From Naegleria gruberi (taxonomy: Eukaryota), in assembly GCA_000004985.1 (NCBI GenBank), contig GG738912.1: DNA of 64,000 nt. One strand, written 5' to 3'. The position numbers were made by a program, and so were the translations under genes. The notes below the pieces were generated by a model that had not been told where the DNA came from, searched no databases, and saw only the letters and a list, made by a program, of their open reading frames with translations. Shown here piece after piece: positions 1 to 47,684 of the stretch. Position 1 is the first letter of the stretch, and every line of letters starts with the position of its first letter.

Positions 1-3000
1 ATGGCATCAAATAATTCAGGTGTTTGTAATGGAAGAGGTCATTGTATTGATTACAATCATTGTTCCTGCAATTATGGATACTCAGGAATTGGCTGTGAAC
101 TGTATTCTTGTTACGGAATTTCTGCAAATAGCTCACGAGTTTGTTCGGGAAGAGGAACTTGTAGTTTATCGGATAGTTGTATTTGTCAAAATCACTACAC
201 TTTCCAACAAGACTGTTCAGTTACAACTTGTAATGGAGAGTTCAGTAACTCTTCGAATGTTTGTAGCTCACATGGACAATGTATTTCTTACAATCATTGC
301 AATTGTTCTGAAAATTATTATGGAAATAATTGTGAAATGTTCAAATGCTTTAATATTCCAGCCAATGACTCATCAGTTTGTTTTGGAAAAGGAAATTGTT
401 CGGATTACAATACTTGTAATTGTGAATTGAATTATTATGGACTTGATTGTTCAGAAAAAATTTGTAATGGTACATTGAGTAGTAATTCATCTGTTTGTAG
501 TTCAAGAGGTTCCTGTGTTGCATTTGATTTGTGTAATTGCACTGAAAATTACTTTGGTGATTGGTGCGAATTGACTACCTGTTTTAATACATCATCTGAA
601 GATGCAAGTGTTTGTTCTGGTAAGGGAGTTTGTGTTAATTTTGATACATGTACATGTCAATCAGATGCTTATGGATCTAATTGTTCAGAATATGGTTGTT
701 TCGGAGTGATGAATTCAGAGCCAAATGTTTGTAGCTCAAGAGGAGCTTGTTTGAATACTGACAGATGTAATTGTTCAGATAATTACTTTGGAAATTACTG
801 TCAATTAACAACATGCTTTGGAATTACATCCAACGAAAGCATTGTGTGTAGTGGAATGGGAGATTGTATTGATTTTGATATGTGTCAATGCCAAACTGGT
901 TTTTATGGAGACGTATGTGAATCTCACTCTTGTTTTGGAATACTTTATAATAATGAAACAGTTTGCTCTAGTAACGGAAATTGTACTCAACTGAACCATT
1001 GTGAATGTAACTCTAATTTTACTGGAATTCAATGTGAAACTCTCATTGTAATTCCTGATCCTGTTGTAAACATTACAATGAATGAAACAATCGTAACAAA
1101 CACCATGAACGAAACTTCAACTTTAAACATCACCCTTCCATTGAATGAAACAATAGAAAGTAACGTGACCATTATCTTGAACGAAACCTTGAATGCAACC
1201 TTGAACGAAACTGTGGTTGATAATTCTACCTTTTTAAACGAAACCCTTGAATCAAACAATACCTCTTTGATTGAAAATACTACAAGATTGAACGAAACAG
1301 TGAATGCTACATTAACTACCAATGAAACAATTAATGCTAATGTGACTATTTCGAATCAAACATTGATTGCCAACGAAACAATTCTAGATAATGTGACTAT
1401 TACTAATAACATAACAACAGTGATTAGCGAGAACGTAACATTGATTGACAATACTACAGGATTGAACGAAACAGTGAATGCTACATTAACTACCAATGAA
1501 ACAATTATTGATAATGTGACTATTTCAAATGAAACATTGATTGTCAATAAGACAATTATAGATAATGTGACTATTACTGACAATATAACAATCATAACAA
1601 ATGAAACTAATATTGAAAATAGTCAAACAGTTGTAAACGAAACAAGTGTCAGCACTCCTAATATTACTCTGACTAATGATACAATAGTGAATAACGAAAC
1701 TACAATTGCAAACGAGACATATCTTAACGAAACTATGATTGATGTAATTCCAATAATTGAAAACGACACTATTCTTTGTGAAAAGAAGTTGAATTGTTCC
1801 AATCATGGTGATTGCCTTTATACTGGAAAATGTAGATGTTACACTGATGATTCGAATGGTTATTGGTCAGGAGAAAGTTGTGATACTTGCTTATTTGGAT
1901 TTTATGGAGATTCGTGTAGATTCAGACCTCCAGTTGCAATTATTGCGGCTACTGAAGAAGTTTATAGCTCTTGTGATGACATTTTGATTGATGGAAGGTC
2001 AAGTTATTCATTTGATGGAACTGATTTGAATTTCTATTGGAAATTGATTGATTCAGATACTTTACAAGAAGTTTCTTCAAATCATTCAAATGTTGCATTA
2101 TTAAGATTGAAAGGAAATATTCCACATGGTAATTATTTCATATCTCTCCAAGTAGAAAGTACCACTTTGAATCAAAATAGCTCCCTAGTTTATTCCAACA
2201 TCTTTAAAAAGTCAAAAGTTCCAATTCCTGTTGTAAATTTGATCGATAACACCATTGAAAAGTTTACAAATCAATTCCCTCTAACAGCCAAGAAGACACT
2301 TACAGAATCTGCATGTGCTTATGAAAAATCCATCATAGAATGGTCTCAAATAAGTGGCCCACCAATCAATTATCAAGTTGACCAATATTTCAATCTTTAC
2401 ATTCCATCTATGCTCAATTACGGCAAGAACTCATTCACATTCCAAGTAACTGCCTATTATCCATCTTCTCCTAAATTTAACGCTACTCAAACACTTATTA
2501 TCAAGACCAAATCCACAGATTTAAGTCTTGATCTTATACAAACCACAGCCACAGAAACATCTACAAATTTGGTTGTAAAATTTGTTGATCTAGAATTGAA
2601 TGGAGATGAGGAAACTTGGAAATGGAGTTGTTTGGATAATAACAATACGAAATTGATGCTTTTCCTTAGTGATATTTCTCAAAGAAAAGTTGATGATATA
2701 ACTTTTGATTCTTCTATTTTCGGAAGTGAAATACCAAACTCTATTGAATTAACTCTACAAGTCTCCAAATCCTATAACAGAAGTATTGAAAAATCAACAA
2801 TTATCTACTTTAATGCAATTCCTCCAATTGTCTCGATTGTTTATACTGAACCAAGTACAAGCTTTGTTCTTCCAGGTCAACAACTTTTCTTACAAACATT
2901 TATTGCCAACAATCAACAATCAAATTTGACAGTTTTCCTTAATGGACAAGTTATCGGTGTGTACGATAAGACAGGTCTGATAATAGACACTTCCAATTTG

Positions 3001-5253
3001 GAACAAGGTTCACAAAACACAATCACCATTCAATCATACGATCCTGCAACTGGAAAGATCTTTACTACCACCTATACCTTTAATGTAGCTTCAAATCCTA
3101 AACCTTGTAAATGTTCTATCACTCCATCTATTGGTACTGCTTTAGAAACAGACTTTGATTTTTACTGTGCTAATTGTAAAACAGATATTATTGATTATCA
3201 GTATGGATTTGTGGATGACAAGTCAGGTGTTAAGATTTCATTAAGAAAGGAAGAAGTATATTCATCCAAGTTACCTGCACCATATTATGGATCTACAGTC
3301 ACTTGTTATTTCGATATTATTGATACTTCAACCAATGCCTATTCGACAGTCTATGTAAATGTCACTGTGGAGGCTCCAACAGTTTCAACTATTGATCAAT
3401 TACAGAATTTGGTGGAAATTTGGGAATCTAGAAGTAATCAATATATTTTGGATGGCGAATTTAGTAAGGGAATTTATCAATCAGCAACAACTTCAAGAAC
3501 CGACTCGGTTTTAATGAGATCAGCTATTTCATCAGCAATTTCAACTCGTGCCTCTAATATTGTTTGTGGAAATGGTGTTGAAATTTCTGGTATTTGTAAA
3601 TGCTTTGATGGTTATGTTGGACAATACTGTGAAAGATCTATCAAATCCTTCTCAAATATTCAGTCAACCAAGATTCAAGTCTTGCGTCACCTTTCCTTAA
3701 TTGGAAACAACACTTATGAAGAAAGCATGAATAGCGATTATTTGTCATTGTTAACATTTGCAGTTGACTCTATTCTCATCAATTATCCATTCCTCAAATC
3801 TGAAACTATCCACGAATCTCTCACAACTTTCAACAATTTCCTGGTCAAAGGTTTAATTAATTCCAATCTCAGACTTTCCTCAGGTGCTGATCTTTTACTT
3901 TCTTCATGTCTTGATTCTGCTTACAAGTACATTATTGACAAACAATATCTCACTGACCAAACAACCAATTCTAATAAGTTACTCCGCTCTGTCAAACTTT
4001 CTTCCTATTTACAAGTAAGAAGTGTTCCAGCAGGAAGAGGAAGAAAAACAATGACTGGACCTTTCTTCTCAATTGTTTTAGGAAAGAGTTTCTTCCATGA
4101 TTATGAGACCAAAGTTCAAGATCCGCATTCTATGGTTTCTGTTGAAATGGAAAACGGATTCTTTGATAATTCTGCTAAATATTCGTTGAATATTTTATTG
4201 AAACAGTTCATGTATGTCTTAACAGTGACAGACGATATTTATTCATTGAATAAGAAATTGGTAGAAACTGAAACAGTTGATTCGAACACAAAAAAGAGAT
4301 CCAATTTAATATCAAAGATTGTTTCCATCGAATATTTGGATTCTCCATCTGCAATGAATGAAGAAAATTTAATTTATTCAATTCCTGTCGAATATGCAAC
4401 AAATAACGATAGTACACCTTTAGGATTTTTAGAAGAACGCACAATTTCATTCAGTTATTCATGTGGAGATTTTCTAGATGGAAATTCAAATATGCAATCA
4501 AATTGTGAAATCGTTTCAATTCAAGAAAAATCTATCAAATGCCGTTGCAAGAGATTTACTAATGTTTTTGTAATCCAAACAGCCACAATAACTACTCAAT
4601 CATATGGACAATATGTTGCTATTGGTGGTGCTACATTTGTCATTTTACTATTAATTTCCATCATTACCCTTATTACCCTTATTTGTGTAAGAAGAAGGAA
4701 ACGTAAACAACAAGCAAGAAGAATGGTCATGATGGAAGCTTCCAAAATCCAAGATATTATTCTTGAAAATCGTGAAGCATATTCTGGATTGGACAATTAC
4801 GATTATCCAGAAACACATTCATCAGGAAATCGTTCTGACGATGATCCATTCATGATTTACAAACCAATGATGAATGCAAATGGAAGAAATACACATTATG
4901 CACTTCGGACACACTCTTCTGATATCGATCTCTTACAAATTAATAAGATTAAGAGACATCAAGTAGCTCCAGAAGATTACTTCCAAGCAGCTCTGGATAA
5001 AGCACACGAAATGAACGAAACTTCATCAAGTAGAAGCGGATCCAATGATTCACCACGTAGATTATTAGGAGATTCAACATCAGATGTCTATGCTGGTAGA
5101 GTTAGATCTGGAAGTGCTATTAGTGTTGGAATTATTTGGGATTTGAAAGAACCAATTCTTCCAGAAGGTGGACATTCATCTGATAATGAAAGTTCCCAAG
5201 GATCTGCAGAACAATGCAACACACCAAAGAAATTTGATGATCACATGATTTAA
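1..5253 (+). CDS. Giant type-I receptor-like protein, paralog A (5' end cut by window edge): tenascin-type EGF repeats, N-glycan stalk, PKD/REJ-like module, GPS-like motif, single TM, cytoplasmic tail
   Basis: The 1750-aa ORF is open from position 1 with no signal peptide, so its 5' part lies upstream of the window. About 14 EGF-like units of 31-32 aa (C..G.G.C....C.C...Y.G..C) are followed by 240 aa of NxT/NxS sequons. Then comes 'PPVAIIAATEEVYSSCDDILIDGRSSYSFDGTDLNFYWKLI', which matches the PKD/REJ consensus. A further EGF 'GICKCFDGYVGQYCE' follows, then 'CEIVSIQEKSIKCRCKRFTNVFVIQ', the TM helix 'VAIGGATFVILLLISIITLITLICV' and an RRRKRK stop-transfer. The stop codon is at 5251-5253. Confidence 0.8.
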   Translation: MASNNSGVCNGRGHCIDYNHCSCNYGYSGIGCELYSCYGISANSSRVCSGRGTCSLSDSCICQNHYTFQQDCSVTTCNGEFSNSSNVCSSHGQCISYNHCNCSENYYGNNCEMFKCFNIPANDSSVCFGKGNCSDYNTCNCELNYYGLDCSEKICNGTLSSNSSVCSSRGSCVAFDLCNCTENYFGDWCELTTCFNTSSEDASVCSGKGVCVNFDTCTCQSDAYGSNCSEYGCFGVMNSEPNVCSSRGACLNTDRCNCSDNYFGNYCQLTTCFGITSNESIVCSGMGDCIDFDMCQCQTGFYGDVCESHSCFGILYNNETVCSSNGNCTQLNHCECNSNFTGIQCETLIVIPDPVVNITMNETIVTNTMNETSTLNITLPLNETIESNVTIILNETLNATLNETVVDNSTFLNETLESNNTSLIENTTRLNETVNATLTTNETINANVTISNQTLIANETILDNVTITNNITTVISENVTLIDNTTGLNETVNATLTTNETIIDNVTISNETLIVNKTIIDNVTITDNITIITNETNIENSQTVVNETSVSTPNITLTNDTIVNNETTIANETYLNETMIDVIPIIENDTILCEKKLNCSNHGDCLYTGKCRCYTDDSNGYWSGESCDTCLFGFYGDSCRFRPPVAIIAATEEVYSSCDDILIDGRSSYSFDGTDLNFYWKLIDSDTLQEVSSNHSNVALLRLKGNIPHGNYFISLQVESTTLNQNSSLVYSNIFKKSKVPIPVVNLIDNTIEKFTNQFPLTAKKTLTESACAYEKSIIEWSQISGPPINYQVDQYFNLYIPSMLNYGKNSFTFQVTAYYPSSPKFNATQTLIIKTKSTDLSLDLIQTTATETSTNLVVKFVDLELNGDEETWKWSCLDNNNTKLMLFLSDISQRKVDDITFDSSIFGSEIPNSIELTLQVSKSYNRSIEKSTIIYFNAIPPIVSIVYTEPSTSFVLPGQQLFLQTFIANNQQSNLTVFLNGQVIGVYDKTGLIIDTSNLEQGSQNTITIQSYDPATGKIFTTTYTFNVASNPKPCKCSITPSIGTALETDFDFYCANCKTDIIDYQYGFVDDKSGVKISLRKEEVYSSKLPAPYYGSTVTCYFDIIDTSTNAYSTVYVNVTVEAPTVSTIDQLQNLVEIWESRSNQYILDGEFSKGIYQSATTSRTDSVLMRSAISSAISTRASNIVCGNGVEISGICKCFDGYVGQYCERSIKSFSNIQSTKIQVLRHLSLIGNNTYEESMNSDYLSLLTFAVDSILINYPFLKSETIHESLTTFNNFLVKGLINSNLRLSSGADLLLSSCLDSAYKYIIDKQYLTDQTTNSNKLLRSVKLSSYLQVRSVPAGRGRKTMTGPFFSIVLGKSFFHDYETKVQDPHSMVSVEMENGFFDNSAKYSLNILLKQFMYVLTVTDDIYSLNKKLVETETVDSNTKKRSNLISKIVSIEYLDSPSAMNEENLIYSIPVEYATNNDSTPLGFLEERTISFSYSCGDFLDGNSNMQSNCEIVSIQEKSIKCRCKRFTNVFVIQTATITTQSYGQYVAIGGATFVILLLISIITLITLICVRRRKRKQQARRMVMMEASKIQDIILENREAYSGLDNYDYPETHSSGNRSDDDPFMIYKPMMNANGRNTHYALRTHSSDIDLLQINKIKRHQVAPEDYFQAALDKAHEMNETSSSRSGSNDSPRRLLGDSTSDVYAGRVRSGSAISVGIIWDLKEPILPEGGHSSDNESSQGSAEQCNTPKKFDDHMI
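1270..1620 (+). repeat. In-frame tandem duplication (2 x ~174 nt / 58 aa) inside the N-glycosylated stalk of paralog A
   Basis: The string 'gattgaacgaaacagtgaatgctacattaactaccaatgaaacaatta' occurs at ~1287 and again at ~1460. The two units encode 'LNETVNATLTTNETI..NVTISN.TLI.N.TI.DNVTIT.NIT'. The whole 1030-1750 stretch is NET/NVT low-complexity. Confidence 0.8.
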
Positions 5254-16081: not shown

Positions 16082-19000
16082 TTATTGATTTGTTGGATAA
16101 TCCCAATAATTATTATACTTCTTTTTGTTTGGAGATTCCACTTGTTGAGCAAAGAATCTTGCATCTGGAGAAAATTCTTTGTTATCATAATAAACATAAT
16201 TGGTCACTGGAGGTGAACTAAAACCTCTTGGTCTCATGAATTGAATTGGAGTTGAGGATTCGAGTGGAACAGTCTTTCTCTTTCTCTTATTCACACAGTA
16301 CATGATACAGCAGAATCCAATTGTGGCAGCAATGGCCAAACAGAGAATTATATAAATGGCAACTCCCAAAATTAAATAATTGGAAAGGGAAAAGATATTT
16401 TTGGAAACTGTTTCAACAATGAAAACGTTGGTGAATCGAGAGCATTTACAAGTGGCAATATCTTGATTAATGCTCAATATTTTACAATTTGAGGAAAGAT
16501 CACCAGTTTGATCTGTAAAATCAACGCAGGAATATGAATTGTTTGAGGTTACAATTTCCAAATCAAGGAAGGTTCCAGCATAAGAAGACTGGTCTTGTTA
16601 ATTGGGAAGGTATAAATGACTCCACTTTCATCAATTGGGAAATCATTATCAAGTACATTAAACGAAACAATATTCGAAATGACATAGCTCTCTTTAAACT
16701 TAGAAGCATATTGGTCCATAGAAGCCAACTTGGTATTCAATCCATAAACATCCTGCATTGTAATCATAATATACGAGAATGGCTTCTTTACCAATGCAAC
16801 CTTACTGGCCTTGGCCAAGAAATTTCCATCCAATTCTACAATCGTTCCATAAGTAGGATCAACAATTTTAGGTTCATAATCATAGACGGTATGTCGATTA
16901 GTATTGACAGAGTAGAAATCACCCTTTCTGTTTTTAGCTGTTCCACCCAAGGTTAATGATCTACTTGTCAAGAAATTTGATGTTTTGGAAGCTGAAATTA
17001 ATTTGAGAGAGGAAGTTGATTGATTAGTTGAAGCTTTCTTCTTTGAGAGATAGGAATAAATTGATTTGATACAATTTTCAAATAATTGAACAATGGCATT
17101 GTCGACTTTCAATTCACTTGACAGGGCAACTCTAAGAACTGAATTTAAATTATTCAAAACTTGTGAAATTACTTCAGATGTCAAGGAATCAATATTAAGA
17201 AGAATCGAATCAAGTCCAAATCCAACCAATGATATGTAATCATCTGTAACTCCACTAATATTTGCCAACTGGACCATCATATTCAAAACAGAAACAGTTG
17301 TCTTTTGAACTAGGTCAAATTCTACAATGGAAATATCACAATTGTGTCCGATATATCCTTCAGCACATTCGCAATGGTTCGCAACTTCAACACCATTCTT
17401 GCAAGCTAACGATCTCTTAGCTGTTGCACTCTGTGAGTTGATATATTCCTTAACTAGAATGGCATCAGTTCTGGAGGTATAAGCAGATTGTGAAATACTC
17501 TGACTAATGTCACCAGTCTCTGAGAGTTTGACACTTGTATCTGTCCATACTTGAACTACACCTTCAATATCCTGAATAGTTGAATAAACAGGTGTAGTAA
17601 TTGAAATGTCATAATAGGAGATGACAGATGCAGATGTCTTTGTGTCCACAATTTCAATGTAACATTTCACAATAGTTCCAGAAGAAGGTGATGGAATCTT
17701 TGAAGAATAAATTTCTCCAAGGTTGTACAATGGTATCTTGGTTCCAGATCTATCATCCACAAATCCATAATTAAAGTCAATTGTCTTTTCAGAATTTTGG
17801 CAATTTACGCACGAGAATATAAAGTTAGTATCGAGAGCAATGCCTTCAGTTGGAGTAATTTCACACAAGCAAGGTTTTGGAGTGGTTGCAACTTGGAAAG
17901 TATAACTAGCACTTGATGTAGCTCCAGTAGAAGAATCAAAGCTTGAAATTTCAATATTATTCGTAGATCCTTCTGGCAATAATGAAGTATCAATAATCAC
18001 AGTACTTGTTGAACTAGTTTCTGATACTGTGTTAACTAATTGTCCATTAATATACCAAGTATTATTCAGTGTGGATGATTGAGATGAAACTAGAGTCTGC
18101 ATTGAGAAGGTATTACCAGATAAAATGTAACTAGTTGACGGTTCGATGGAAAGAACATTCAAAACAGGTGGAATATTAACAAAGTATGCTCTGATTGATT
18201 TGGAAATTGATCTTCCGTCTGATTTTACAATAGTGAGTGTGAAATCTACATAGTTTGGAATCTTTCCATTGAAATAAGAGGTGGAAATGATGACTAGAGT
18301 GGATTTTGAATTGGAAACAGTAAGTAGATAATCCTTTAAAAAGGTATTTGTAGAGTTCCAATTCCAAGTTTCAGTTGACTGAGTGTTCACTGTAGATTCA
18401 GGATCAGAATACATTACTTCAATAGTGGAAGACTCACTTGATGATTGGAGAATGTGCAGTTCAAGTAAAAGATCTGGAGATTTCGTATTCAATGTCACAA
18501 GGGAAGAAACACGAGCACTTGGATTGGAATTATAAAAAGCAGAAACTTTGAAAATATAAGTATTCATTCCGAATGTTTTCAGAGTTGAAATTAGCAGATT
18601 ATTGGCAGAATCTACTGAATATTCAATTGAAGGACCGCTTGTTTGTACCCATTCAACACTAATTGCTTCGCTTGATTGACAAGATGCTTCGGTTACTATC
18701 TTTTTGATAGTGAGCGGGAATTCATTAGAGTATTTTTCGTATAATGATTTGGAAACAACCAATGAAGGAAGTGGCTTTGAGGATTTGGTAAATACATTAC
18801 TATATGTAACACTACTACTAATTCCCAAATAGGAACTCTTTACAAATAATGTAATAAAGTAAGAACCAGGTGGTAAATTTGGACTAAGAGAAATAATTGC
18901 TTGATTTGGAACTATTTCACTAACTGATAGCGTACCGTTAGAATTATACAGAGCCCAAGTGTAAATTAAGGTCTTACCATCGGCTGAGAAACTTGAAGAA

Positions 19001-22000
19001 CCATCCACAGCAATCTCATCACATGAACTGTAAATGTCTACATTTCTCATTTTGATTATTGCTTGTGGTGGAGCAATAGATACCGGAGGAAGAATTACAA
19101 ATGAAAGATAATTGGTAGGTTGAGTGAAAATTTGATTGAAAGCTAGCGTGTTAAGTCTGATTGAGGTCATGCTCAAGATAATATTGTAATCCATTGATCC
19201 AAATGTAATTCTGAATAAAGAAGTTGACTTGTCAATAAATTGACACTTGACTAAGGAAGAGCTTCCGTAAATTCCATTGGTTAGGTCATTGGCATGGAGC
19301 AATTTACTGCATACGACATCAACTCCACTAATTGGTGGTGAATATAAATAAAATTCAACACCTCTAAAATCAGATGTCATTCTGACAGGACCTACAATTC
19401 GAGTTAAACAAGATTCTCCATAGTAACCACTTTGACATGTACTACATGAAGAACCTGTCCAATATCCTTCATTAGAATTTGAATAACATGTGCAAAAACC
19501 TTTTACATTACATTCTCCATGATTAGAACAAGTTTCAACTTTAGTACATTCTGTTATAGTTATTGAGTTGTTTGAAGGAGCATTTGGTGGAATGGAAGTT
19601 GTATTAGTTTTTACAGTTGAATTGGTAGTTGTTGTATTATTTGTTACAGTTGAATTAGTAATTGCTGTAGTATTTGAACTAGTTGTGGCATTCATAACAA
19701 CAGTCTCATTGTCTGCTACGGTAGTATTTTCTGTAACGTTTGTTGAATTTTCAGTTGGAACGGTCGTGGTTTCATTCATTGCATTACTAGAAGCATTGAA
19801 ACTATCAGTTGAATTAGTAGAAGTGACATCAGAACTGGTAATATTTTCTGAAATGGTCGTGTTGTTATCAATCAAAGTGGTGTTGTTAGAAATAGTTTCG
19901 TTCACTTGATCAGTGTTATTAGAGGAAACAGTTTCATTGGAGCTAGTAACTGTCTCATTAGAAATTGTTTGGTTAGTTTCACTCGCAGTACTATTTTCCA
20001 CAACAGTTTCATTTGAAATTTCAACACTTGTAGAATTATTGTCAAGTACTGTACTGTTAGTAATGTCTGTGGAATTTTCCACATTGGTTTGGTTAGCAAT
20101 TGTGGAGTTGTCAACAAGAGTAATATTTCCATCATTGAGAGTTGAATTATTTAAAATTTCTAATGTAGAATTATTCTCAATTGAAGTGGAATTATCAGTA
20201 ATGTTTGTTTCATTCGACTCACCAATAGATTCATTCAAAGCTGTAGAATTATTGGAAACTATGATGGTACTATTATCATCCGTTGTTGTATTGCTAATCA
20301 AACTGTTATTAGCATCAACTGTGGAATTATCCACAAATGTAGAATTATCAACCAAGGTTTCGTTTGCTTGAGTGATTGTTTCATTGGAGGAGCTAAAAGA
20401 GTCATTTGAAGCAGTTGTGCTATTGGTAACCACAACAGTGCTATTATCAGTTGTGGTACTATTAGACAAAGTACCATTATTAACATCACGATTATCCACA
20501 AATGTAGAATTATCAATAGAAATAGTTGTGTTATCAGTCAAGCTAATGTTAGAAGTTGTGGAATTGTCAACTTGAATACTTTCATTACTGATAACTTGAG
20601 TACGATTTTCACAGAATTGACCAAAATATCCTTCTGTGCAATTACAAATATCAGTAGAGACACAAGATCCATTTCCATTACAAACACTTGGATCAGTATT
20701 GAGTATTCCATTACATTTAAATTCAGAACAATCTGCTCCATAGAATCCATTTTCGCAACTGCAAGTATTATAATCCGTACAATTGCCTTTTCCTGAACAA
20801 ACGGAACTGTTGGACAAAATATTGTAACAAGTTGAAATTTCACAATTAGATCCATAATAATTGGAAGCACAATTACATGAATTAAATGAGATACATTGTC
20901 CATGGCCTGAACAAGTATCTGAAGAATTGTATAATACACCATTACAGGTTGTAACTGAGCAATCAGATCCGAGATAATTGGTGTGGCAATTACATTGGTC
21001 ATGAGATGTACACTCTCCATTTCCAGAGCAGGTCAAAGTATCATTAGATAACACATTGTTACAACTGGTGATTTCACAATTAGATCCAAAATAATTAGAT
21101 ATGCAATTACATGAATTAAATGAGCTACATTGTCCATGACCTGAACAAGAAACGGAGGAGTTGGATAATACACCATTACAGGTAGTAATTGAGCAATCAG
21201 ATCCAAGATAATTGGTGTGGCAATCACATTGGTCATGAGAAGTACACACTCCATTTCCAGTACAAGTCAATGTGTTGTTGGACAACATATTGTAACAAGT
21301 TGTAATTTCACAATTAGATCCATAATAATTAAGGGAACATTGGCAAGTGTCATAACCAATACATTGTCCATGAGAGTTACATACCAATGCATTATTTGAT
21401 TGGATATTGTTACAAGTTGTGAGTTCACAATTGGTTCCAAAATAATTGCTAATACAATTACAACTATTGTAAGAAGAACAAGTTCCCTTTCCATTATTAC
21501 AAACTTGTGCAGAATTTGAAAGAATATTGTTGCAACTGGTGATTTCACAATTAGATCCCAGATAATTAGCTTGGCATTGGCATTGATTAAGACTAACACA
21601 AGATCCCTTTCCTGAACAAACATTTGAAGAATTACTTGATATTCCATTACAAGTTGTAATAGAGCAACTAGATCCAGAATAACCAGAATTACAAGAACAT
21701 GAATCCGAGCTAGTGCAATTTCCGTGTCCAGAACAAACATATGAGGTATTTGTGGAAGCAATTGAAAAGCAAGAGTATGAAACAGGCGTCACAACTGAAC
21801 TACCATCACTATTGCCACTATTTCCACTATTTCCACTATTAGAAACTACAATGGAAGCTGCAGTTGGATCATAGCTTTGGCAATCGGTTCCATAATAACC
21901 AGAACTGCAAGTACAAATTCCTGCACTGCAAGAACCATGACCTGAACAAACCAATGATGATGATGTTGGAATGGCATTACATCCATCCATATCACAATTC

Positions 22001-25000
22001 ATGCCAACCTTGCCTTGTGGACAGGTTGGGAATAACAATCTCAACCTTCCAGTTTTAGATTCAGTATAGTAAATACCAAGATTTGAATACCAAACATTCA
22101 CTGGTTTGGATACATAATCACCGGAACCATCGAAACCATACAGAGGAGGACTAGTTGATGAGAATAAGGTAAATGTACCAGCATAGGTGGACAAGATATT
22201 GGAACTGACTTTTCTGATAGTTTGAGTTCCTTGATCAGCAATATAAATTTCATTTCTTGATTCATCGACTGAAACTCCGGTTGGATAGTAAAGTTTAGCT
22301 GTGCTACCATCAGCTTGTACGTTGGCTCCACATGAAGCACCAGTAGAACAATAACTTGTGGAACCAGCAACAATTGACATGGTTCCCGAGGAAAGCTTTC
22401 TAATCTTGTGATTCTATAAAGAAATGTTAATGAATAAATATTATTTGAATAACTTACTCCTGTATCGGCTACATAAATGGTATTACCATCTGAGCTCACA
22501 TATAAACCAGTTGGCTTTGACAATTTAGTCAAGAGAGGATTAGAATTATCACATGTTGCAGAGCCAGCAGTTGTACATTCAGTTCCTTCACCAATCACTG
22601 TAGTTAAAACATTATTATATATCATTCTAACTCTGTGATTCATTGTGTCGCAAAAGTAAATCTTGGCTCCAACAATGGCAATACTGGTTGGGAAATTAAG
22701 GGTTGCCGAGAGAGGAGCTCCATTATCACCACATGCAACACCAGAAGCTGGAGTACATGCTGTTGAAGTTCCTGCAACTGTGATTACCTTATTATTGGAA
22801 TCTATTTTTCTAATTCTGTGATATTCTGATTCAGAATAGTATATTTCACCTGTGGTTGATGATTTGGCGAGTCCAAAAGGAAATTGAATACCACTAATTT
22901 GATAAGTATCTTGAATTTTTAAGGAAGCTTGGTAGGCATAAGTGTTATCTGCGGTTTGACTTGAAGCAGTTGGTAATAAAAAGTTTCCTAAAATAGTATT
23001 GATTCTTCCTGTAGTAGCATCAAATTTAGCAATTCTGGCATAGTTCATGCTTGGTGTTGAGGCAAACAATTCACTATCGGCAGTACTTCCACCACTTGCA
23101 CCAATATAAATATCTCCATTAGAATCAATGAATAAACCAGCAGGTCTCATCAATTTAGTTCTCAAAGCAATTGTATTCTCTCCATTGTAAAATGAGTAGT
23201 CATTGTAATAGTGTCCAGAAGCTGAGGCTATATTTCCATTAGAATCGAGATATCTGATTGCAGAGAAAGTGAATCCACTGTAAGTACCTGAGTAGGAACT
23301 AGAGACAGCATCATCGAAATAGAGAGTTCCACTTGGTGAGAAGGAAATTCTCTTGGCAGATATCGGTGAGAGTGCACTTGACCATTCTCCCTTATTGGCA
23401 TAGGTAGCTCCATTACCAACCACTGTAGAAATGTAGCCAGTCGAAGAAACCTTTCTAACTCTTTCAGAATCACAGAAATAGAGCTCGTTTGTTGATGGAT
23501 GAATGTCCATATCATTCACTGTTAAAATTGTGGCACTTGTTGCAAGACCACCATCACCACATGGCTGTGTTGAGCAGGAAGTTCTCAATGTACCAACATA
23601 TTTGGTAATTGTGTTTCTATTGGCTGAAATCTTTCTAATATAATACAAACTAGGGTCAGCAACGAAGATTTCATTATTAGCATTGACAGCAACTACCTGA
23701 GGACCTCCAAAGGTTGCTGCCAATGGACTCCCTCCTTCACCACAGGTTCCACTATTACAACCAGTTGCCTGTATACCAGCAATGGTTGTAATAATTCCTG
23801 TTGCCTTACTGACCTGTCTAACAATACGATCTCCAAAAACAGCAATGATCAAATCATTATTAGGTGTGAGGGCTATACCTTTAGGTGTATTTAAGGAAGT
23901 TGCTGTGGCTGCAACGTTATTAGCATAGGAAGCACCACCTCCAGCATAGATGGACATGACACCTGTGGCATAATCAATCTTTTTGATATAATTGTCGTCC
24001 ACAAAGTAAATGTCATTGTTGGATTGATCAATGGCCATGTAAGTTTTTGATTTGTAAACTTGAGAATACTTGGCCAGATTACCAGCGCCAAAACCGACAA
24101 GAGCAGCGCTAGGATCAGAATAACCACCTGCTATTTTCTTTACAATAGTAGTATCTGGAGCAACTTGAAAGATTTCACTATCTGCCATGACGTACATGGT
24201 TCCATTCTTTGTAAAGGCAACTTTTGGATTGATTTTGAATTGAGTATTAATCATCTTATTGCCAAAACCATTAGAAGATTCATGAGTACCGGCTATACAT
24301 GTAACAACACCATCTTTTAACATTCTCAAACGATTACTCCTATGGAAATTAGAATAGAGAAATTATTAAGAAATAAAATAAGGAATAAAAAAACATACAT
24401 TTCAGTATAGTAAATAGTTGTACCATATGAAAAGACAGATTTGACTGCTTTTGCTTCATCGTTCGAAACATAAATCTTAATATTCGTTCCAATTTGGCCA
24501 TCGCCATTAGGTCCAATAGAAAAGTAATAAGCTGATGGCCAAACATTATTACCATTACCAATGACGGTTGAAATTATTCCAGTTACAAAGTCTACTTTTC
24601 TAATTCTATAAACTGTAGAATCTGAAAATATTAAATCTCCATTAGAAAGAACAGTCAAGCCCTGAGGATAACTGAGCAAGGCACTTAATGCGCTACCTCC
24701 ATCACCACATGCAGCCATTGGGGTAGTTGCGCATGAGCTAAGAGGTGTACCAGCGTAACGTTGAATCATGTTGGTTTGAGTATTCCACCTTCTAATCACA
24801 GAGTTGGTCTTGTCTGAAATGTAGACATACAGACCATCAGAAGAAACAGCAATACCACCTGGAGTTTGAAACCTAACTGAAGCATCTGAGATGAAACCTC
24901 CATCACCTTGATAACCTTGGTTGCTAGCATCACCATATTTTGCTATTAAAAGGCCAGTAGCTCTGTCAATCTTTCTAATCTGGTTGTTGGAGGATTTACC

Positions 25001-25675
25001 GTCTTCCATGATGAAAATGTGATTTGGTGAGACAGCAATAGTGTGAGGATTGGTGAGTGTTTGTGAATTTAACCCATTACCATAGAATAAGGTTATAATT
25101 CCACTCGTTTGGTTCACCTTCTTAATATTGGAATTGTAATAATCCAAAATATAAACTGAGCCATCAACTGGATCAACGGCACATGTATGTGGTCTTAAAC
25201 CAGCCTCAGTTGCCTTAATATTATTTCCACAAGGACCGTTTGAGGCAGATGAAGTACAAGATATTGATTGATAACCATTGCCCGCAAAGTGAGTGGCAAC
25301 ATTAGAGCCTGCCGAAATTTTGAAAACCTTATATTGTCCATCATCACAAATGAACAAATCACCAGTTTTAATGTCAGCACAGCCACCACCTCTCACATCC
25401 TTAAAGAATAAATTGGATGCATCAGAGTCTATTTCAGTTAAATGTCGATAGATGCCTGCCATGGTCCTAGAGCTTGTTGCTGCATGTACGGAATGATGAA
25501 TTATACTAATATGAAGAATGAATAATTGGAGAAGGACTAGGAGAAAGTATGTGAAATCCGAAATTCTCTTCTTCTTCTTCCCACTATTAGCAAGAGTTGT
25601 TAACCTAGCAGCATGCTGCTTTGAATATTGTACACTGATACCGAGAAGAGACATGTTATTGTTACTTTTTATCAC
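16082..25675 (-). CDS. Giant type-I receptor-like protein, paralog B (~3200 aa): signal peptide, NHL beta-propeller repeats, tenascin-type EGF array, N-glycan stalk, PKD/REJ-like module, GPS-like motif, TM, tail. Contains a 1-nt frame break near the 3' end
   Basis: Four track ORFs (24326-25675, 22098-24329, 16549-22380, 16082-16561) form one gene. Intron 24340-24398 (59 nt, GTATGT..ATAG) joins '...GTTIYYTE' to 'MSNRLRMLKDGVV...'. Intron 22414-22457 (44 nt, GTAAGT..TATAG) joins '...TIYVADTG' to 'NHKIRKLSSGTMSIVAG...', rebuilding a canonical NHL repeat (YVADTGNHRIRK). The N-terminus 'FTYFLLVLLQLFILHISII' is signal-like. The C-terminal part aligns with paralog A (TSLLML/TPLGFL..SYSCVDF/SYSCGDF, CKCSRFTNVF/CRCKRFTNVF). 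The frame shifts by +1 between ~16565 and 16590; the track's 'M' at 16561 is a TTG. Confidence 0.75.
19560..20590 (-). repeat. Low-complexity N/S/T-rich region encoding ~80 N-glycosylation sequons (stalk of paralog B)
   Basis: The translation is 'NESIQVDNSTTSNISLTDNTTISIDNSTFVDN...NSTVKTNTTSIPPN'. The region spawns long spurious antisense ORFs in the track (19568-19909, 19913-20371 and others). Confidence 0.8.
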
Positions 25676-26896: not shown

Positions 26897-29800
26897 ATGA
26901 TGTTGAATCCAGCAACATACAAACAATCATCTTCTTCAACTGTGGATGCTAATACAGCCTTTCCCTTGAGGGGAGGCACAACAACTTCATCTGATTTTTC
27001 TGATACTTCATCAACATTTAGGAGACCTTCTGCTGATGTTGCAGCCTTCAGCTTCAACACTTCGAATCCTGGAAGAAATGATGAAATTTCTGATTCTGTT
27101 CAAAGCTCCACTGAATCAATGACAGCAACATCCTCCTTCATCAATCACACAAAGGAAAATATACTTACCATGTTGGTTTCATTGCAAGAGAGGGCTCCTG
27201 TTACGGGTTGGAAAAACTACATTTTCTACTTGATGTTTTATATCTATGTCTTGTGGTGCCAACTGTTTGTGCCAACTGTAAGAAATTTCAACTGGGGAGA
27301 GGAAGGAAAATACGTATTCAAAGTAATTAATTTTCCAACAACTTTATTGTTTGATTTGGTTCCATATTTTGGAACTGTTGGAATTGCAGCTGTGTTCATG
27401 TTCATTGTTTTATTGACAGCTGTCTTGTTGTGTTCTGCCTACTACTTCACTATCAAGCCAAGCAAACATGCCAAATATGTCACAAATTCTTTGTGGTACT
27501 TGAGTTTTTGTGTCAAAATATTTGCATTGATTGGAACTCACTTACTGGCTGGCTTTTTTGATTGTAACCTTTCAAATCAAATTTCCATAACTGTTTCCTC
27601 CACTTCAGGCACAAGTACAAGTACGTTAATGTCCTCTCTCAACAGATTTTCCAATGTTGGTTGTATAGAATCGAATAATGATATCGTTATAGCATTTAGT
27701 TCCCTCACAATAATAGTACTCGTAATCATTTACCCTTTCGTTGAATATACAACTAGTAATTGCAATCCTCAAAGTAGACTTCCACTGACTTCAGAAAGCT
27801 CATTTTTGTGGAGTGTTTTGGGAGTTTGTAATATTATAGATCTTGTAATTTCTCAGTCAATTCCTATTCAATATTCATACATAGCTGCGAGTATTCATAT
27901 TGTCATTTCCATAGCTTGTTGTTTGGTGATTTTTAAATCCTTATCCTTCTTTACACATTATGAAAATGCCATCATACAGAGTATTTATGTGGGAAGAACT
28001 GCTGTGAGTATCGGTTCTCTAATTTCCTCATTGTCAAACAGTGGCAATAACTCAGAGTTAGGTGGAGGATTTGTAGGTCTTGCTATTGGTCTATTGATTA
28101 TTGGAGCTGTTATAGGATTCCTCATTCAATTCCTAATTCTCTTCTTTAGAATGAAACAAATCAAGAATTTCATAATACAAAATTCTCAAACAGAAAGCAA
28201 AACTCAAACAGATGAAGATAACCTCAAACAATTATATTCATGTATTGAAAGAATGTCCTCGGTACTCTATGCGGATTTGGAAGATTCTAAAAGATTGAAC
28301 TCTTTGAACATGTTTTTAAAGTTATCTCTCAAACAAGGTGATGCAAGAATATCATTCCACTTTGTAAAAGGACTAGCTCAAAGCAAAATGTTCAACAATC
28401 CAAAGGCTTTAATATACTCTGCTTTGTTGGTTCAACTTTATTGGTCTGAAGAACAGAGTGCCTCTACATTGGCAAATAGCTTTTTAAGAAAGGCCTTAAA
28501 AAATGATCCGTCCCCACTTGAAAGGTTAGTTATTCAAGAACGAATCAAAGAGGTTGAAACCATGTCCAACACAAAGAACAGCCTATTTGAAATAGCAGGC
28601 CAAATACAAAAATTAGAAAGATATCAAACTAGTATTCTTACTTTACATAAGGATTTGTGGAAAGAGTTAGCAAACGAACATCTCAACTATGATTCCATAC
28701 AAAAGATTAATAGAAATATATCCAGTTTGACTTCAGAATGTAAATCCACATTGAACAGTCTCTATTTTAACTATAAGAATAACAAGACAGTCATAAGAGT
28801 TTACGCTCACTTTATTGAAAACTTTGAGTTTAACAAACCTTTAGCAGATTCACTTTTTGCTGAAGCTAACTCTTTGGAGGAGGAGGAAATTAAAAGAAGG
28901 AGAAGACCATCTCAAAGCAAATCCACCAAAAAGAGTCTGTATGCAGCAAGTAACAGGGTTGTTCCAAATGACAAGTATGAGATTTCCAGTGCATTTCATG
29001 AGGAATCATCCAACTATGATGTTGTAGAAAATGCAAAGATAGAAGAGATGGATGATGCCTTTGATAATCCTCAAATCAAGAAGGAGACACTATTTTTGAA
29101 TGCCATTTCCATACCAAAATCAAATAGCTTAGTCAGGAGCTTGTCTACTATTTATTTTGTGTTTGTATTTGTGTGTATTGTTGCTTCTATTTCTCTTGGA
29201 GTTATCTATTCTTATAACGTAAAGTCAACTGTTCCATATGTTGAACAAGTTTGCTTTCCAGGAACTGTTCCATATGCTCTTATAAGAAGTATCAGAGCAT
29301 GCCAAAATTGGATGAATACATTTTATTTCCAAGAGGTTGAATGGCCTGTCTTGAACGAAGGCTATCCAACCATTACAAAAACTGTCTATATCAATGATCA
29401 CAAGAATAGAATGAACAATAGTATAATAGCTTTGAAGAAATTAATTGCCGTTGGTCAACTTGGAGTATTTACTGATTCTATTTATAATGATTATTCTTCT
29501 AGTGTTTATACTGTAAATTCTCCTACTGAAGATAGTACTACTCCAAAGTTATATACAGGTACTTATCAAACTAGAAATACATCTATTGTCGATATAACCA
29601 ATTCTCTGATAAAATATGCAGAACTTATGATGAACGACTATCCTCAGTCAACGTTGTTAAAGTTAGAAAACAAGTCACTGTCTTACAATGAAAGGCAATT
29701 ACTCCTCAACCAAACTTCACAAATGGAGTATTTCAATCCTCTAACAAACTTTAATTTTAATTATTTATGGGCTAACAAGGGTACGTTTACAACTGCCTAC

Positions 29801-46053: not shown

Positions 46054-47684
46054 TTTTTTGTTCAAACTTGTTTTTGCTGGGTAGCTTAGCCAACCGCAAC
46101 ATGTGTTGTTGTTAAACATGTCTATTTTAATGCTTAGATTCAAGAGATCGTCTTCATTGCCATATTGTATCACTACAAACATAGTATTTATTGTAAATGC
46201 ATGCCTTTATTTAAAGAGTACTAATAAAGACATGAAGATGGGGCTCCAAACTTGTGTTTAATCTCCTAATTGTAAACATGCACTTTTGGGAGATTCTGGC
46301 TTTTAAGGCGCAAGTGTATTTGAGACATTCACCGACTATTAAGAGGCCTCTGTTGTTTCACATAGGACGATAATTGGTTCTGTGTGTATTACCACAGCGA
46401 GGAAAACCACAAGAAATACAAGACTTCCTTAGTTTTCCTCAAGTTAAAACTTGGCGGAAACACATGCTGTGATATATTAATAAACCTTAATGATTCACCT
46501 TAATTAGGGTGGAAACACAACAAATTAATAGTATGCAGTTCACCCGTTTTACGTTGCCAGCTGAATCATTGGCTTGCAAGAAAAATGAAAGCGATACAAA
46601 GTCTACCCAAGTATGCGATACCAAATCATACCGCTAATTTGCTGTAGTTCCAAAAAAAGTCCATTCTGGGAATCAAAACAAAATTTTCCTACACTATTTG
46701 AGTTTAGCTCCTCAAATCAAACCAAAAGCTAATAAGGAACTGAAGGATGAATAAGGAAGAAAAAATCGACAGCGCTAAATCAAACTTTTAAAGCACGAAT
46801 TAGGTTGGACCAAGGCAGACCCACTCTTAAAATATATTCCCTTCACTCTGATATTCGAGTGCCAAGCAAGCAAATGCTCTTGAGCATTTCCGGCTCCAGA
46901 ATTTTGGTGTGAATGCTCGTGTGCAAGCTCCTCTATTTCCATTTATAACCTTCAGTTCCATTCCTGACCTTCAGTTCCATATTAAAATATCAACAAAATG
47001 TATTTTAAAATGTATTATTAATAATATAATAAGGCTGGCAATTATTTGTTGTTGAATCAGTCCTGTTGGTTGAATTGGCACATTGTGTTTCTTTGATTTT
47101 GTGTTTACCTTAATTAAAATAGTAGCGAGAAATAACGTTGCTTACTACATGTATGTATTCTACCTTATTCCAGATCCATTTCCAAGTGGAAAAAGCAAGG
47201 GTTGTGAAGGATTTATTTATTTTGGAAGCTCTGTTATTAGTTGTAAGGATTTATGGATTAATAGTCAACAGGTGAAATTACCTCTAATGTTTGATATAAA
47301 GCTAGTGAATGTGCAATTAAAGTCAGTGTTCAAATCGTAAAACCCATTAATGATGGGCCAAACAAATTTGGATACTAAGAATTTGCCGCCTGTCAAAATG
47401 AAAACCGTTACGATTATTAAATAATAAATATTCACCATCAGAAAAAAACTTACCAACAAGAAATCACACCAACAACAATCAATAATTTATTTACCATGGG
47501 TGTGATTTCTTGTTGGTAAGTAGTTAGTTCAAAAAAATTGATGTGATAGAGCTGTAACATATTTCCACGTATCAACCAATTTCACACTTATCTCATCAAC
47601 ATTAGGTATCAAGCAAAGATGATCTTGCCATTACAATATCCGTCGAGGCTTTAAACCCCAGATAGTACGCACTCGCAGATGCTC

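What the first reader, a model, noticed from the sequence alone, without database searches (positions are those of the whole stretch)
4504..4578. GPS-like motif C-x(11)-C-x-C-x-R-F-T-N-V-F immediately before the TM helix (paralogs A and B)
Paralog A has 'CEIVSIQEKSIKCRCKRFTNVFVIQ' and paralog B (16406-16486, minus strand) has 'CKILSINQDIATCKCSRFTNVFIVETV'. Both end 15-20 residues before the single TM. The spacing and residues mirror the GPCR-proteolysis-site consensus C-x-C-x-H-L-T-x-F-A-V-L found in adhesion GPCRs, polycystin-1 and suREJ, with R-F|T replacing H-L|T. If functional, these proteins would be autoproteolytically cleaved into a shed ectodomain and a membrane stub. That would be a mechanistic parallel to metazoan adhesion receptors.
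Basis: partly seen in the sequence, partly recalled or inferred. Interest (0 to 1): 0.7.

Follow-up and report, generated by a model that had tools for sequence, protein, structure and literature searches.

The report
GAIN/GPS domain in Naegleria surface receptors
The flagged motif is the real GPS end of a predicted GAIN self-cleavage domain, next to the membrane in a family of large single-pass Naegleria gruberi surface proteins, but all of them lack the catalytic histidine, so cleavage itself is unproven.

Summary
Both peptides are at the stated coordinates. They belong to a full four-cysteine GPS layout (C-x13-C-x11-C-x-C-K-R-F|T-N-V-F), with the putative cleavage site about 18 residues before the only TM helix.

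The window is Naegleria gruberi. Protein A is XP_002670695 (D2VYQ4), annotated only as 'predicted protein'.

Seven further N. gruberi paralogues were found.
- All four Cys are invariant in all 9 sequences.
- [F/L]-T-N-V-F is kept in 7 of 9.
- One paralogue has Gly at +1 and one is degenerate.

Three lines of evidence identify a GAIN domain.
- A family profile searched against PDB sequences hits only adhesion-GPCR GPS motifs (ADGRL3, E=0.004).
- An AlphaFold2 model has pLDDT 82 and pTM 0.78.

A Pfam REJ domain lies upstream. The architecture is therefore EGF, REJ, GAIN and one TM, which is polycystin-1/suREJ-like.

The Pfam GPS model misses the motif (best E 0.12). No member has His at −2; the residues there are R, K, Q, S or T. 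Autoproteolysis is therefore plausible (about 45%) but not shown.

Paralog B is interrupted by a 1-nt frameshift just upstream of its GPS.

GAIN domains in protists were already reported by Araç et al. 2012, so this is a new member of a known kind.

The parts
1..1041 (+). Protein A (XP_002670695 / D2VYQ4), aa 1-347: array of teneurin-type EGF repeats. There is no signal peptide, so the N-terminus of the gene model is probably incomplete.
   Evidence: Pfam EGF_TEN 6.5e-29, EGF_2 and EGF_Teneurin. No N-terminal hydrophobic segment.
1042..1776 (+). Protein A aa 348-592: Asn/Thr-rich repeats dense in N-x-T/S sequons, read as a mucin-like N-glycosylated stalk.
   Evidence: Direct reading of the translation.
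2401..3462 (+). Protein A aa 801-1154: REJ domain, the polycystin-1 / sperm receptor-for-egg-jelly module.
   Evidence: Pfam PF02010 REJ, E=5.9e-14, 52 bits against a cutoff of 25. REJ is also above cutoff in paralogues P0003, P0004, P0007 and P0008.
3562..3633 (+). Protein A aa 1188-1211: a single EGF-like module between REJ and GAIN.
   Evidence: Cys pattern CGNGVEISGICKCFDGYVGQYC. Weak EGF hits only.
3634..4602 (+). Protein A aa 1212-1534: predicted GAIN domain. Subdomain A has 5 helices (about aa 1214-1340). Subdomain B is a β-sandwich (about aa 1349-1534).
4462..4581 (+).
   Evidence: Profile hit to the ADGRL3, ADGRD1 and ADGRB2 GPS motifs with Cys in register. Four Cys invariant in 9/9.
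4555..4560 (+). F1519-T1520: the predicted scissile bond, equivalent to L837|T838 of latrophilin-1. It lies in the 4-residue turn between the last two β-strands of the model.
   Evidence: DSSP of the model: strands at model residues 301-306 and 311-324 flank K-R-F-T. HMMER alignment to CsCnHL|TNFAVL. Cleavage itself is inferred and was not tested.
4615..4686 (+). Protein A aa ~1539-1562: the single transmembrane helix, followed by RRRKRK. This gives type I topology with the GAIN domain outside the cell.
   Evidence: Kyte-Doolittle scan: the only segment above threshold in 1750 aa is 1534-1566.
4687..5253 (+). Protein A aa 1563-1750: cytoplasmic tail and stop codon. No domain was detected.
16588..17337 (-). 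Paralog B: N-terminal about 250 aa of its GAIN domain, in the frame of ORF 16549..22380.
   Evidence: Aligns with A at 33-34% identity.
16561..16590 (-). Paralog B: a 1-nt frameshift between '...FPINKT' and 'SSYAGTFLDLEIV...'. Homologous coding sequence continues at once in the other frame, so this is not an intron. It is either a sequencing error or a recent pseudogenising mutation.
   Evidence: Three-frame translation and comparison with paralogues.
16409..16528 (-). Paralog B GPS motif C-x13-C-x11-C-x-C-S-R-F|T-N-V-F-I-V-E-T. F|T is at 16430-16435.
16286..16399 (-). Paralog B hydrophobic segment containing its single TM helix, followed by KRKRK.
   Evidence: Kyte-Doolittle scan.

Best explanation
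The motif is the GPS end (the last β-strands) of a genuine GAIN domain. The domain sits directly outside the membrane in a Naegleria gruberi family of large single-pass type I surface proteins. Their architecture is [NHL]–teneurin-type EGF array–N-glycosylated stalk–REJ–EGF–GAIN–TM–tail. This is a polycystin-1/suREJ-type REJ–GAIN module on a one-helix anchor.

Shown here:
- GAIN fold prediction with two subdomains.
- Four invariant Cys in GPS register. By analogy with CL1 these would pair C1488–C1514 and C1502–C1516.
- F1519–T1520 in the tight turn between the last two strands.
- A juxtamembrane position.

Inferred mechanism: T1520 attacks the F1519 carbonyl (N→O acyl shift) in the strained turn, cutting the chain between F and T. 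The last strand (TNVFVIQT…) stays embedded in the β-sandwich, so the large ectodomain remains non-covalently held on a stub of about 231 aa (TM plus tail). It could be released by mechanical force or ligand pull.

The −2 His is replaced by R, K, Q, S or T, so cleavage would need another base or mainly backbone strain. It may be partial or context-dependent.

My estimates are about 0.9 that this is a GAIN/GPS homologue and about 0.45 that protein A self-cleaves in vivo. The paralogue with Gly at +1 (P0007) and the degenerate one (P0008) are predicted to be non-cleaving.
For: - Sequence: the four-Cys layout and the [F/L]-T-N-V-F strand. The four Cys are invariant in 9/9 paralogous sequences that share only 25-47% identity, and [F/L]-T is kept in 7/9.
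- Profile against PDB sequences: all 5 hits at E≤10 are adhesion-GPCR GPS motifs. ADGRL3 scores E=0.0041, aligning CrCskL|TnVf with CsCnHL|TNFa.
- Pfam GPS is the only family hit by more than one member, though below threshold (4/10, best E 0.12).
- Structure: the AF2 model has pLDDT 82.1 and pTM 0.78, with 5 helices followed by a β-sandwich.
- Foldseek against PDB gives 8 hits at E≤1e-3, all GAIN: BAI2 9.7e-13, BAI3 3.8e-12 (TM 0.60), plus CELSR1, CL1, ADGRL3 and CD97.
- A REJ domain lies upstream in A and in 4 of 5 paralogues scanned, as in polycystin-1, where the REJ–GAIN region is needed for cleavage (PMC4810088).
- There is a single TM with positive charge on the inside.
- Literature on non-His sites: GPR125 with S-L|S is cleaved. 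His −2 mutants of EMR2 and Nup98 keep some activity. FIIND and Nup98 use Phe at −1 (PMC9539791).
Against: - No His at −2 in any of the 9 sequences, and that position is not conserved.
- CL1 H836S impairs cleavage. BAI3 (R-L-S, Arg at −2 as in protein A) is uncleaved in HEK293 and insect cells (PMC3321182).
- No conserved His elsewhere in the domain alignment.
- Conservation of Thr at +1 may be structural. CL1 T838A and T838P are unfolded while T838G folds.
- The two canonical GPS Trp residues are missing. A Phe replaces the first.
- The Pfam GPS and GAIN models do not reach threshold.
- There is no 7TM or 11TM bundle in cis, so the tethered-agonist half of the metazoan mechanism has no obvious target.
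Confidence: 0.5

Rival explanations
1. It is a real GAIN fold but cleavage-dead. The domain would serve only as a rigid juxtamembrane stalk or interaction module, as in adhesion GPCRs that are not cleaved. The conserved T-N-V-F strand would be kept for folding, not for catalysis.
For: - His −2 is absent and that position varies across all paralogues.
- BAI3 with R-L-S is uncleaved in heterologous cells, and CL1 H836S impairs cleavage.
- T838A unfolds CL1, so Thr can be under structural selection.
- P0007 carries Gly at +1 and P0008 carries Q at −1, so the family tolerates non-cleavable sites.
- The best structural matches are the uncleaved BAI2 and BAI3 GAIN domains.
Against: - Thr +1 together with a hydrophobic −1 is retained in 7/9 sequences despite 25-47% identity.
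- GPR125 (S-L|S) is cleaved without His. Nup98 and FIIND cleave at (H/S)-F|S.
- BAI proteins are cleaved in brain.
Confidence: 0.42
2. It is a chance Cys-rich motif in an EGF-rich protein and has no relation to GPS/GAIN. On this reading the GAIN-like model is an AlphaFold artefact.
For: - Pfam GPS and GAIN do not reach threshold.
- The protein is full of Cys-rich EGF modules.
- The single-sequence AF2 model was uninformative, with pLDDT 36.
Against: - The profile hit to ADGRL3 GPS has E=0.004, and every PDB sequence hit is a GPS motif.
- The context matches (REJ upstream, TM directly downstream) and the motif is conserved in 9 paralogues.
Confidence: 0.04
3. The motif is cut by a trans-acting protease rather than by autoproteolysis. 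The basic K-R (A), S-R (B) or S-K residues just before F/L-T could be a furin/kexin-like or other sheddase site.
For: Basic residues at −2 and/or −3 occur in 6 of 9 sequences: A, B, P0002, P0003, P0004 and P0006.
Against: - The basic residues are not followed directly by the scissile position, because a hydrophobic F or L intervenes.
- P0005 (V-S-F-T) and P0007 lack basic residues here.
- In the model the site is buried in a tight β-turn of a compact domain, which is not an exposed loop.
Confidence: 0.04

Closest known systems
GAIN domain of adhesion GPCRs (latrophilin/CL1 4DLQ, BAI3 4DLO, BAI2 8OEK)
   Same: - Predicted two-subdomain fold, with helices followed by a β-sandwich.
- Four-Cys GPS with identical C-x11-C-x-C spacing.
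- A hydrophobic −1 and Thr +1 in the turn between the last two strands.
- A T-N-x-F-type last strand.
- A position directly before the membrane.
- Arg at −2, as in BAI3.
   Different: - It is followed by one TM helix rather than a 7TM bundle, so there is no cis target for a tethered agonist.
- There is no HormR domain.
- No family member has His at −2.
- Phe is as frequent as Leu at −1.
- The two conserved Trp residues are absent.
- The Pfam GPS model does not reach threshold.
- Sequence identity in the structural alignments is 9-13%.
Polycystin-1 / PKD1-like / sea-urchin REJ proteins (REJ module + GAIN/GPS)
   Same: - A REJ domain upstream of the GAIN domain.
- A large modular ectodomain.
- The elongated last strand of the model recalls the 'C-terminally elongated TA' reported for PKD1 GAIN models (PMC11697300).
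- suREJ1 also combines an EGF module with a REJ module (PMC2120838). From my own recollection, not checked here, it has a single TM segment.
   Different: - There are no 11 TM helices, no PLAT domain and no channel-like C-terminus.
- An EGF module sits between REJ and GAIN.
- The triad is R/K-F/L-T rather than H-L-T.
- The ectodomain is built from teneurin-type EGF (± NHL) modules rather than LRR, C-type lectin and PKD repeats.
- The organism is a discoban amoeboflagellate, not a metazoan.
Protist GAIN domains reported by Araç et al. 2012 (Dictyostelium gi66815909; Tetrahymena, more than 8 copies)
   Same: These are non-metazoan GAIN domains found by secondary-structure or structure-guided search, not by standard HMMs. 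The GPS Cys and the cleavage-site region are conserved.
   Different: The lineage differs (Heterolobosea/Discoba). I could not retrieve those sequences to compare the triads or check for REJ. Araç et al. describe their putative cleavage sites as well conserved, whereas the Naegleria family lacks the His.
Nup98 and FIIND/ZU5 autoproteolytic domains ((H/S)-F|S)
   Same: Phe at −1 and a hydroxyl nucleophile at +1. These cleave even without His at −2 (CARD8 and NLRP1 use S-F|S).
   Different: They are intracellular and lack the disulphide-stapled GPS. They do not appear among the structural hits here.

Membership tests
GAIN domain (GPS-containing autoproteolysis-inducing domain) | Two-subdomain fold: subdomain A of 2-6 α-helices plus subdomain B, a β-sandwich of 12-14 strands. 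| tested here: met
GAIN domain (GPS-containing autoproteolysis-inducing domain) | GPS motif with four conserved Cys forming two disulphides (1-3 and 2-4) that staple the last strands. | tested here: met
   C1488, C1502, C1514 and C1516 are invariant in 9/9. They align in register with the ADGRL3 GPS cysteines. The bonding itself could not be checked, because no coordinates were available.
GAIN domain (GPS-containing autoproteolysis-inducing domain) | Nucleophile Thr/Ser at +1 and an aliphatic or hydrophobic residue at −1, placed in the kinked turn between the last two strands. | tested here: met
   F1519-T1520 lies in the loop K-R-F-T between model strands 301-306 and 311-324. [F/L]-T is present in 7/9 sequences. 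P0007 has Gly at +1 and P0008 has Gln at −1.
GAIN domain (GPS-containing autoproteolysis-inducing domain) | His at −2, the proposed general base of the H-L|T/S triad. | tested here: not met
   The −2 residues are R (A), R (B), K, Q, K, S, R and T, with N/Q in P0008. No sequence has His. His is not universal among cleaved GAIN domains, since GPR125 uses S-L|S.
GAIN domain (GPS-containing autoproteolysis-inducing domain) | Two conserved Trp residues in the GPS (C-x2-W … W-x4-C). | tested here: not met
   A Phe (F1491, 8/9) occupies the first Trp position. There is no second Trp.
GAIN domain (GPS-containing autoproteolysis-inducing domain) | A match to the Pfam GPS (PF01825) or GAIN models at the gathering threshold. 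| tested here: not met
   Protein A gives no hit even at E≤10. GPS is sub-threshold in 4 of 10 alignment members, best E 0.12.
GAIN domain (GPS-containing autoproteolysis-inducing domain) | Actual cis-autoproteolysis into non-covalently associated N-terminal and C-terminal fragments. | not testable with these tools
   This needs expression with western blot or MS, and T1520G/F1519A mutants.
Adhesion GPCR (class B2) | A seven-transmembrane domain directly after the GAIN domain. | tested here: not met
   There is one hydrophobic segment in 1750 aa (aa 1534-1566) and no 7TM Pfam hit.
Polycystin-1 / PKD1-like family | A REJ module N-terminal to the GAIN/GPS. | tested here: met
   PF02010 REJ scores E=5.9e-14 (52 bits, cutoff 25) at aa 801-1154 of A. 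It is also above cutoff in P0003, P0004, P0007 and P0008.
Polycystin-1 / PKD1-like family | Eleven TM helices with a PLAT domain and a polycystin-channel-like C-terminal half. | tested here: not met
   There is a single TM and no PLAT or PKD_channel hit. The layout instead resembles the single-pass suREJ1 type. The single-pass status of suREJ1 is from my recollection and was not verified here.

The most novel reading that the evidence does not exclude
The PKD1-type REJ–GAIN module would be an ancient eukaryotic invention, present in Discoba as well as in Amorphea and ciliates and so possibly dating to the last eukaryotic common ancestor. In a free-living amoeboflagellate it would work as a self-cleaving, force-releasable latch on single-pass adhesion receptors, using a His-independent R/K-[F/L]|T site. 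Autoproteolytic shedding would then predate, and be separable from, the tethered-agonist/7TM signalling it is coupled to in animals.
Probability: 0.25. Interest if true: 0.6.

Novelty: new member of a known kind. Interest (0 to 1): 0.42.

Why it matters
[quoted passage not shown] A recent survey states that these are the only two families known to contain them (PMC11697300).

A multi-gene Naegleria family with REJ–GAIN on a single-pass anchor has three implications.
- It extends the module to a third eukaryotic supergroup.
- It shows that standard HMM annotation misses such members, which are labelled 'predicted protein'.
- It offers natural variants of the cleavage triad (R/K/Q/S at −2, F or L at −1, and Gly at +1 in one paralogue). 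These could test whether His −2 is needed and what GAIN cleavage does without a 7TM or 11TM partner.

The finding remains an extension of the 2012 report that GAIN is ancient. It does not add a new principle.

Tried and rejected
- The search for homologous proteins was run three times: A aa 1181-1610, A aa 640-1560, and family alignment A3. It returned nothing, not even the query's own database entry, so these negatives carry no weight. The exhaustive HMMER search was what found the paralogues.
- The PDB sequence search with the 2-paralogue profile A2 found nothing relevant. Only the 10-row profile A3 reached the GPS motifs.
- Single-sequence AlphaFold2 of aa 1134-1560 failed, with pLDDT 36. 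The alignment-based run was needed.
- The afdb50 fold library was unavailable. I could not survey predicted structures from other protists or find the AFDB models of the shorter paralogues.
- The look-up of encoding contigs for three window proteins found no record. The annotated gene model of paralog B could not be inspected.
- hhalign of the family profile against the C-terminal 420 aa of the third REJ protein (ORF 32528..35470) gave no match, with probability 0.1%. Whether that protein has a divergent GAIN domain is open.
- An intron was rejected as the explanation for the break in paralog B, because homologous coding sequence continues at once in the +1 frame.
- Literature searches for Naegleria with 'GAIN domain' or 'REJ domain', and for REJ + 'GAIN domain' + protist, found no paper. 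Naegleria + polycystin returned papers, but the one I read held nothing relevant.
Full report
**1. Observation**

Window 4504-4578(+) gives CEIVSIQEKSIKCRCKRFTNVFVIQ. Window 16406-16486(−) gives CKILSINQDIATCKCSRFTNVFIVETV.

Copy A lies in ORF 1..5253, which encodes 1750 aa. In the whole protein the motif is longer than reported: SYSC1488-x13-C1502-x11-C1514-x-C1516-K-R-F1519-T1520-N-V-F. This is a four-cysteine layout whose C-x11-C-x-C spacing is identical to latrophilin's.

The protein has one hydrophobic segment, aa 1534-1566, followed by RRRKRK. The F-T bond therefore lies about 18 residues outside a single type I membrane anchor.

A loose regex over all six frames finds only these two copies, plus one match that crosses stop codons.

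Copy B is not intact as assembled. The long ORF 16549..22380(−) ends at '…FPINKTSLLMLEPSLIWKL*'. The homologous sequence 'SSYAGTFLDLEIVTSNNSYSCVDF…' continues immediately in another frame. This is a 1-nt frameshift at about 16561-16590 and not an intron.

**2. Organism and family**

GC content is about 33% and the ORFs are long and uninterrupted. The window also encodes actin, Hsp70, P450, GST, a photolyase and a PAS-cyclase. These features indicate a eukaryote.

An exhaustive HMMER search of 1.84 billion cluster representatives used a profile of the two paralogues' C-terminal regions. It found 8 proteins with E from 6.5e-181 to 3e-8. All are Naegleria gruberi 'predicted proteins'. Protein A is XP_002670695.1 / EFC37951.1 / D2VYQ4 (NAEGRDRAFT_53311).

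Aligning the eight proteins with the two frames of paralog B (alignment A3) gives these results:
- The four Cys are invariant in 9/9.
- V1522 and T1527 are invariant.
- T1520, N1521 and F1523 are present in 8/9.
- [F/L]-T-N-V-F is present in 7/9.
- P0007 reads S-T-L-G-N-V-F, with Gly at +1.
- P0008 is degenerate (CQCPYQNQTQVGVL).
- The −2 position is R, R, K, Q, K, S, R, T or N/Q, and never His.

**3. Is it GPS/GAIN?**

Pfam does not call it. GPS and GAIN give no hit for A even at E≤10. GPS (PF01825) is sub-threshold in 4 of 10 alignment rows, with best E 0.12, although it is the only family hit by more than one row. This probably explains the 'predicted protein' label.

The A3 profile searched against all PDB chain sequences returns five hits at E≤10. 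All are adhesion GPCRs matched at their GPS motifs:
- ADGRL3: E=0.0041, 0.0098 and 0.022
- ADGRD1: E=0.086
- ADGRB2: E=2

All four Cys are in register, and 'CrCskLTnVfvieT' aligns with 'CsCnHLTNFAVLma'.

AlphaFold2 without an alignment failed, with pLDDT 36. With A3 it gave pLDDT 82.1 and pTM 0.78. The model has five long helices followed by a β-rich half. Strands at model residues 301-306 (SIKCRC) and 311-324 (NVFVIQ…) flank the four-residue turn K-R-F-T.

Foldseek against the PDB gives 8 hits at E≤1e-3, and all are GAIN domains:
- BAI2 (8OEK): 9.7e-13
- BAI3 (4DLO): 3.8e-12, TM 0.60
- CELSR1, CL1 (4DLQ), ADGRL3 and CD97 make up the rest.

The next hit has probability 0.08.

The topology fits the published definition of 2-6 helices plus 12-14 strands, with the scissile bond in a kinked turn between the last two strands (PMC11697300; PMC3321182).

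**4. Architecture**

Pfam finds the following in A:
- Teneurin-type EGF repeats at aa 1-350.
- A REJ domain at aa 801-1154, E=5.9e-14, 52 bits against a cutoff of 25.

Between them lies an Asn/Thr-rich stretch full of N-glycosylation sequons. A single EGF module separates REJ from GAIN.

REJ is also above threshold in P0003, P0004, P0007 and P0008. P0008 additionally has NHL repeats.

The family architecture is therefore [NHL]–EGF array–REJ–EGF–GAIN–1 TM–tail. REJ next to GAIN is the signature of polycystin-1 and the sea-urchin REJ proteins, and in polycystin-1 the REJ–GAIN region is required for efficient GPS cleavage (PMC4810088). The proteins are not adhesion GPCRs, because they have no 7TM domain. 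They are not polycystin-1 orthologues, because they have no 11 TM region, PLAT domain or channel part.

**5. Mechanism, and what is not shown**

In the accepted mechanism His −2 deprotonates Thr/Ser +1. That residue attacks the carbonyl of Leu −1, which sits in a hydrophobic pocket, and two disulphides hold the strained turn.

The experimental record on the −2 position is mixed:
- CL1 H836S, L837A and T838G impair cleavage.
- BAI3, with Arg at −2, is uncleaved in HEK293 and insect cells, although BAI proteins are cleaved in brain (PMC3321182).
- GPR125 (S-L|S) is cleaved, and introducing His does not help.
- His −2 mutants of EMR2 and Nup98 retain some activity.
- FIIND and Nup98 cleave at (H/S)-F|S, with Phe at −1 (PMC9539791).

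The Naegleria site R/K-[F/L]|T has the nucleophile, the hydrophobic anchor, both disulphide pairs and the right position. It lacks the canonical base. The alignment shows no conserved His elsewhere in the domain. Conservation of Thr could also be structural, because CL1 T838A is unfolded while T838G folds. That is consistent with the natural Gly in P0007.

I estimate about 0.9 that this is a GAIN/GPS homologue and about 0.45 that protein A self-cleaves. If it does, the last strand would keep the ectodomain non-covalently attached to a stub of about 231 residues until force or ligand pulls it off. With no 7TM or 11TM bundle in cis, the tethered-agonist step of the animal receptors has no evident target. 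Shedding, or exposure of the stub, would then be the likely output. This last part is inference.

**6. Novelty**

GAIN domains with conserved GPS motifs were already reported in Dictyostelium and Tetrahymena (PMC3321182). Later work accepts that GAIN predates Holozoa (PMC12716839). I found no paper linking Naegleria with GAIN or REJ domains.

A 2025 survey still describes PKD1-like proteins as the only family besides aGPCRs known to contain GAIN.

The finding is therefore a new, unannotated member family of a known kind. It adds three things:
- A new lineage (Heterolobosea/Discoba).
- A REJ–GAIN module on a single-pass anchor.
- A His-less triad.

It is moderately interesting for the evolution of the module and as a natural test set for the cleavage chemistry. 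It is not surprising in principle.

**7. Limits**

- All family members come from one species, and the alignment behind the model has 10 rows.
- The AFDB library was unavailable.
- Three word-index protein searches returned nothing, not even the query's own entry, so distribution outside N. gruberi is untested.
- The exhaustive library holds one representative per 50% identity cluster, so close orthologues in other Naegleria species could be hidden behind the N. gruberi representatives.

Noticed in passing
window 16561-16590 (−): Paralog B has a 1-nt frameshift just upstream of its GPS motif. As assembled, the 1943-aa ectodomain ORF stops 12 codons later. The GPS–TM–tail part (ORF 16082..16561) is in another frame but is still intact. 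This is either a sequencing error or a very recent pseudogene.
   Followed up: partly
window 22098-25675 (−): ORFs 22098..24329 and 24326..25675 carry teneurin-type NHL repeats (E 1.6e-32 and 2e-22). They abut or overlap the start of paralog B's ORF. Gene B probably extends to about 25675 with further frame changes or introns, giving NHL–EGF–REJ–GAIN as in paralogue P0008.
   Followed up: partly
window 32528-39783 (−): A third large single-pass surface protein is present. ORF 32528..35470 has a PKD-like domain, a strong REJ domain (E=2e-38) and a C-terminal TM. Upstream ORFs 35810..37852 and 37870..39783 carry EGF and DPY-like modules. Its juxtamembrane region has C-x14-C but no C-x-C-[FL]-T motif, and it shows no profile similarity to the GAIN family (hhalign probability 0.1%). 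Whether it hides a divergent, Cys-poor GAIN domain is unknown.
   Followed up: partly
window 1-60 (+): The protein A model (and its NCBI entry of the same length) starts at window base 1 with MASNNSGVCNG… and has no signal peptide or N-terminal hydrophobic segment. For a type I surface protein this suggests the gene model is truncated at its 5' end.
   Followed up: no
window 26897-32273 (+): ORF 26897..31597 has TmcB-like TPR, a PAS domain and an HNOBA linker. It is followed after a short gap by ORF 31665..32273, which has an adenylate/guanylate cyclase catalytic domain (E=2.4e-48). This is probably one intron-split PAS-cyclase gene. I recall that such genes form a large family in Naegleria, which I did not check here.
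   Followed up: partly
window 41728-46182 (−): A 1484-aa protein has a signal-anchor-like N-terminus, a β-propeller-like region (weak DUF6923/LVIVD hits), teneurin-type EGFs and a long C-terminal array of about 35-40-residue Cys-rich repeats. It has no TM or GPS. Four large EGF-bearing surface or secreted proteins are clustered within 46 kb.
   Followed up: no
P0001-P0006 cytoplasmic tails (A: window 4687-5250): The tails share short conserved patches, for example 'IQ[DE]IIL' just after the TM and 'G(I)IWDL[KR]E' near the C-terminus of A and P0002. P0005 and P0006 share 'SVYH..RK.SQVIPLR[IV]DL[LM]DE'. These may be sorting or signalling motifs. No Pfam domain was found.
   Followed up: no
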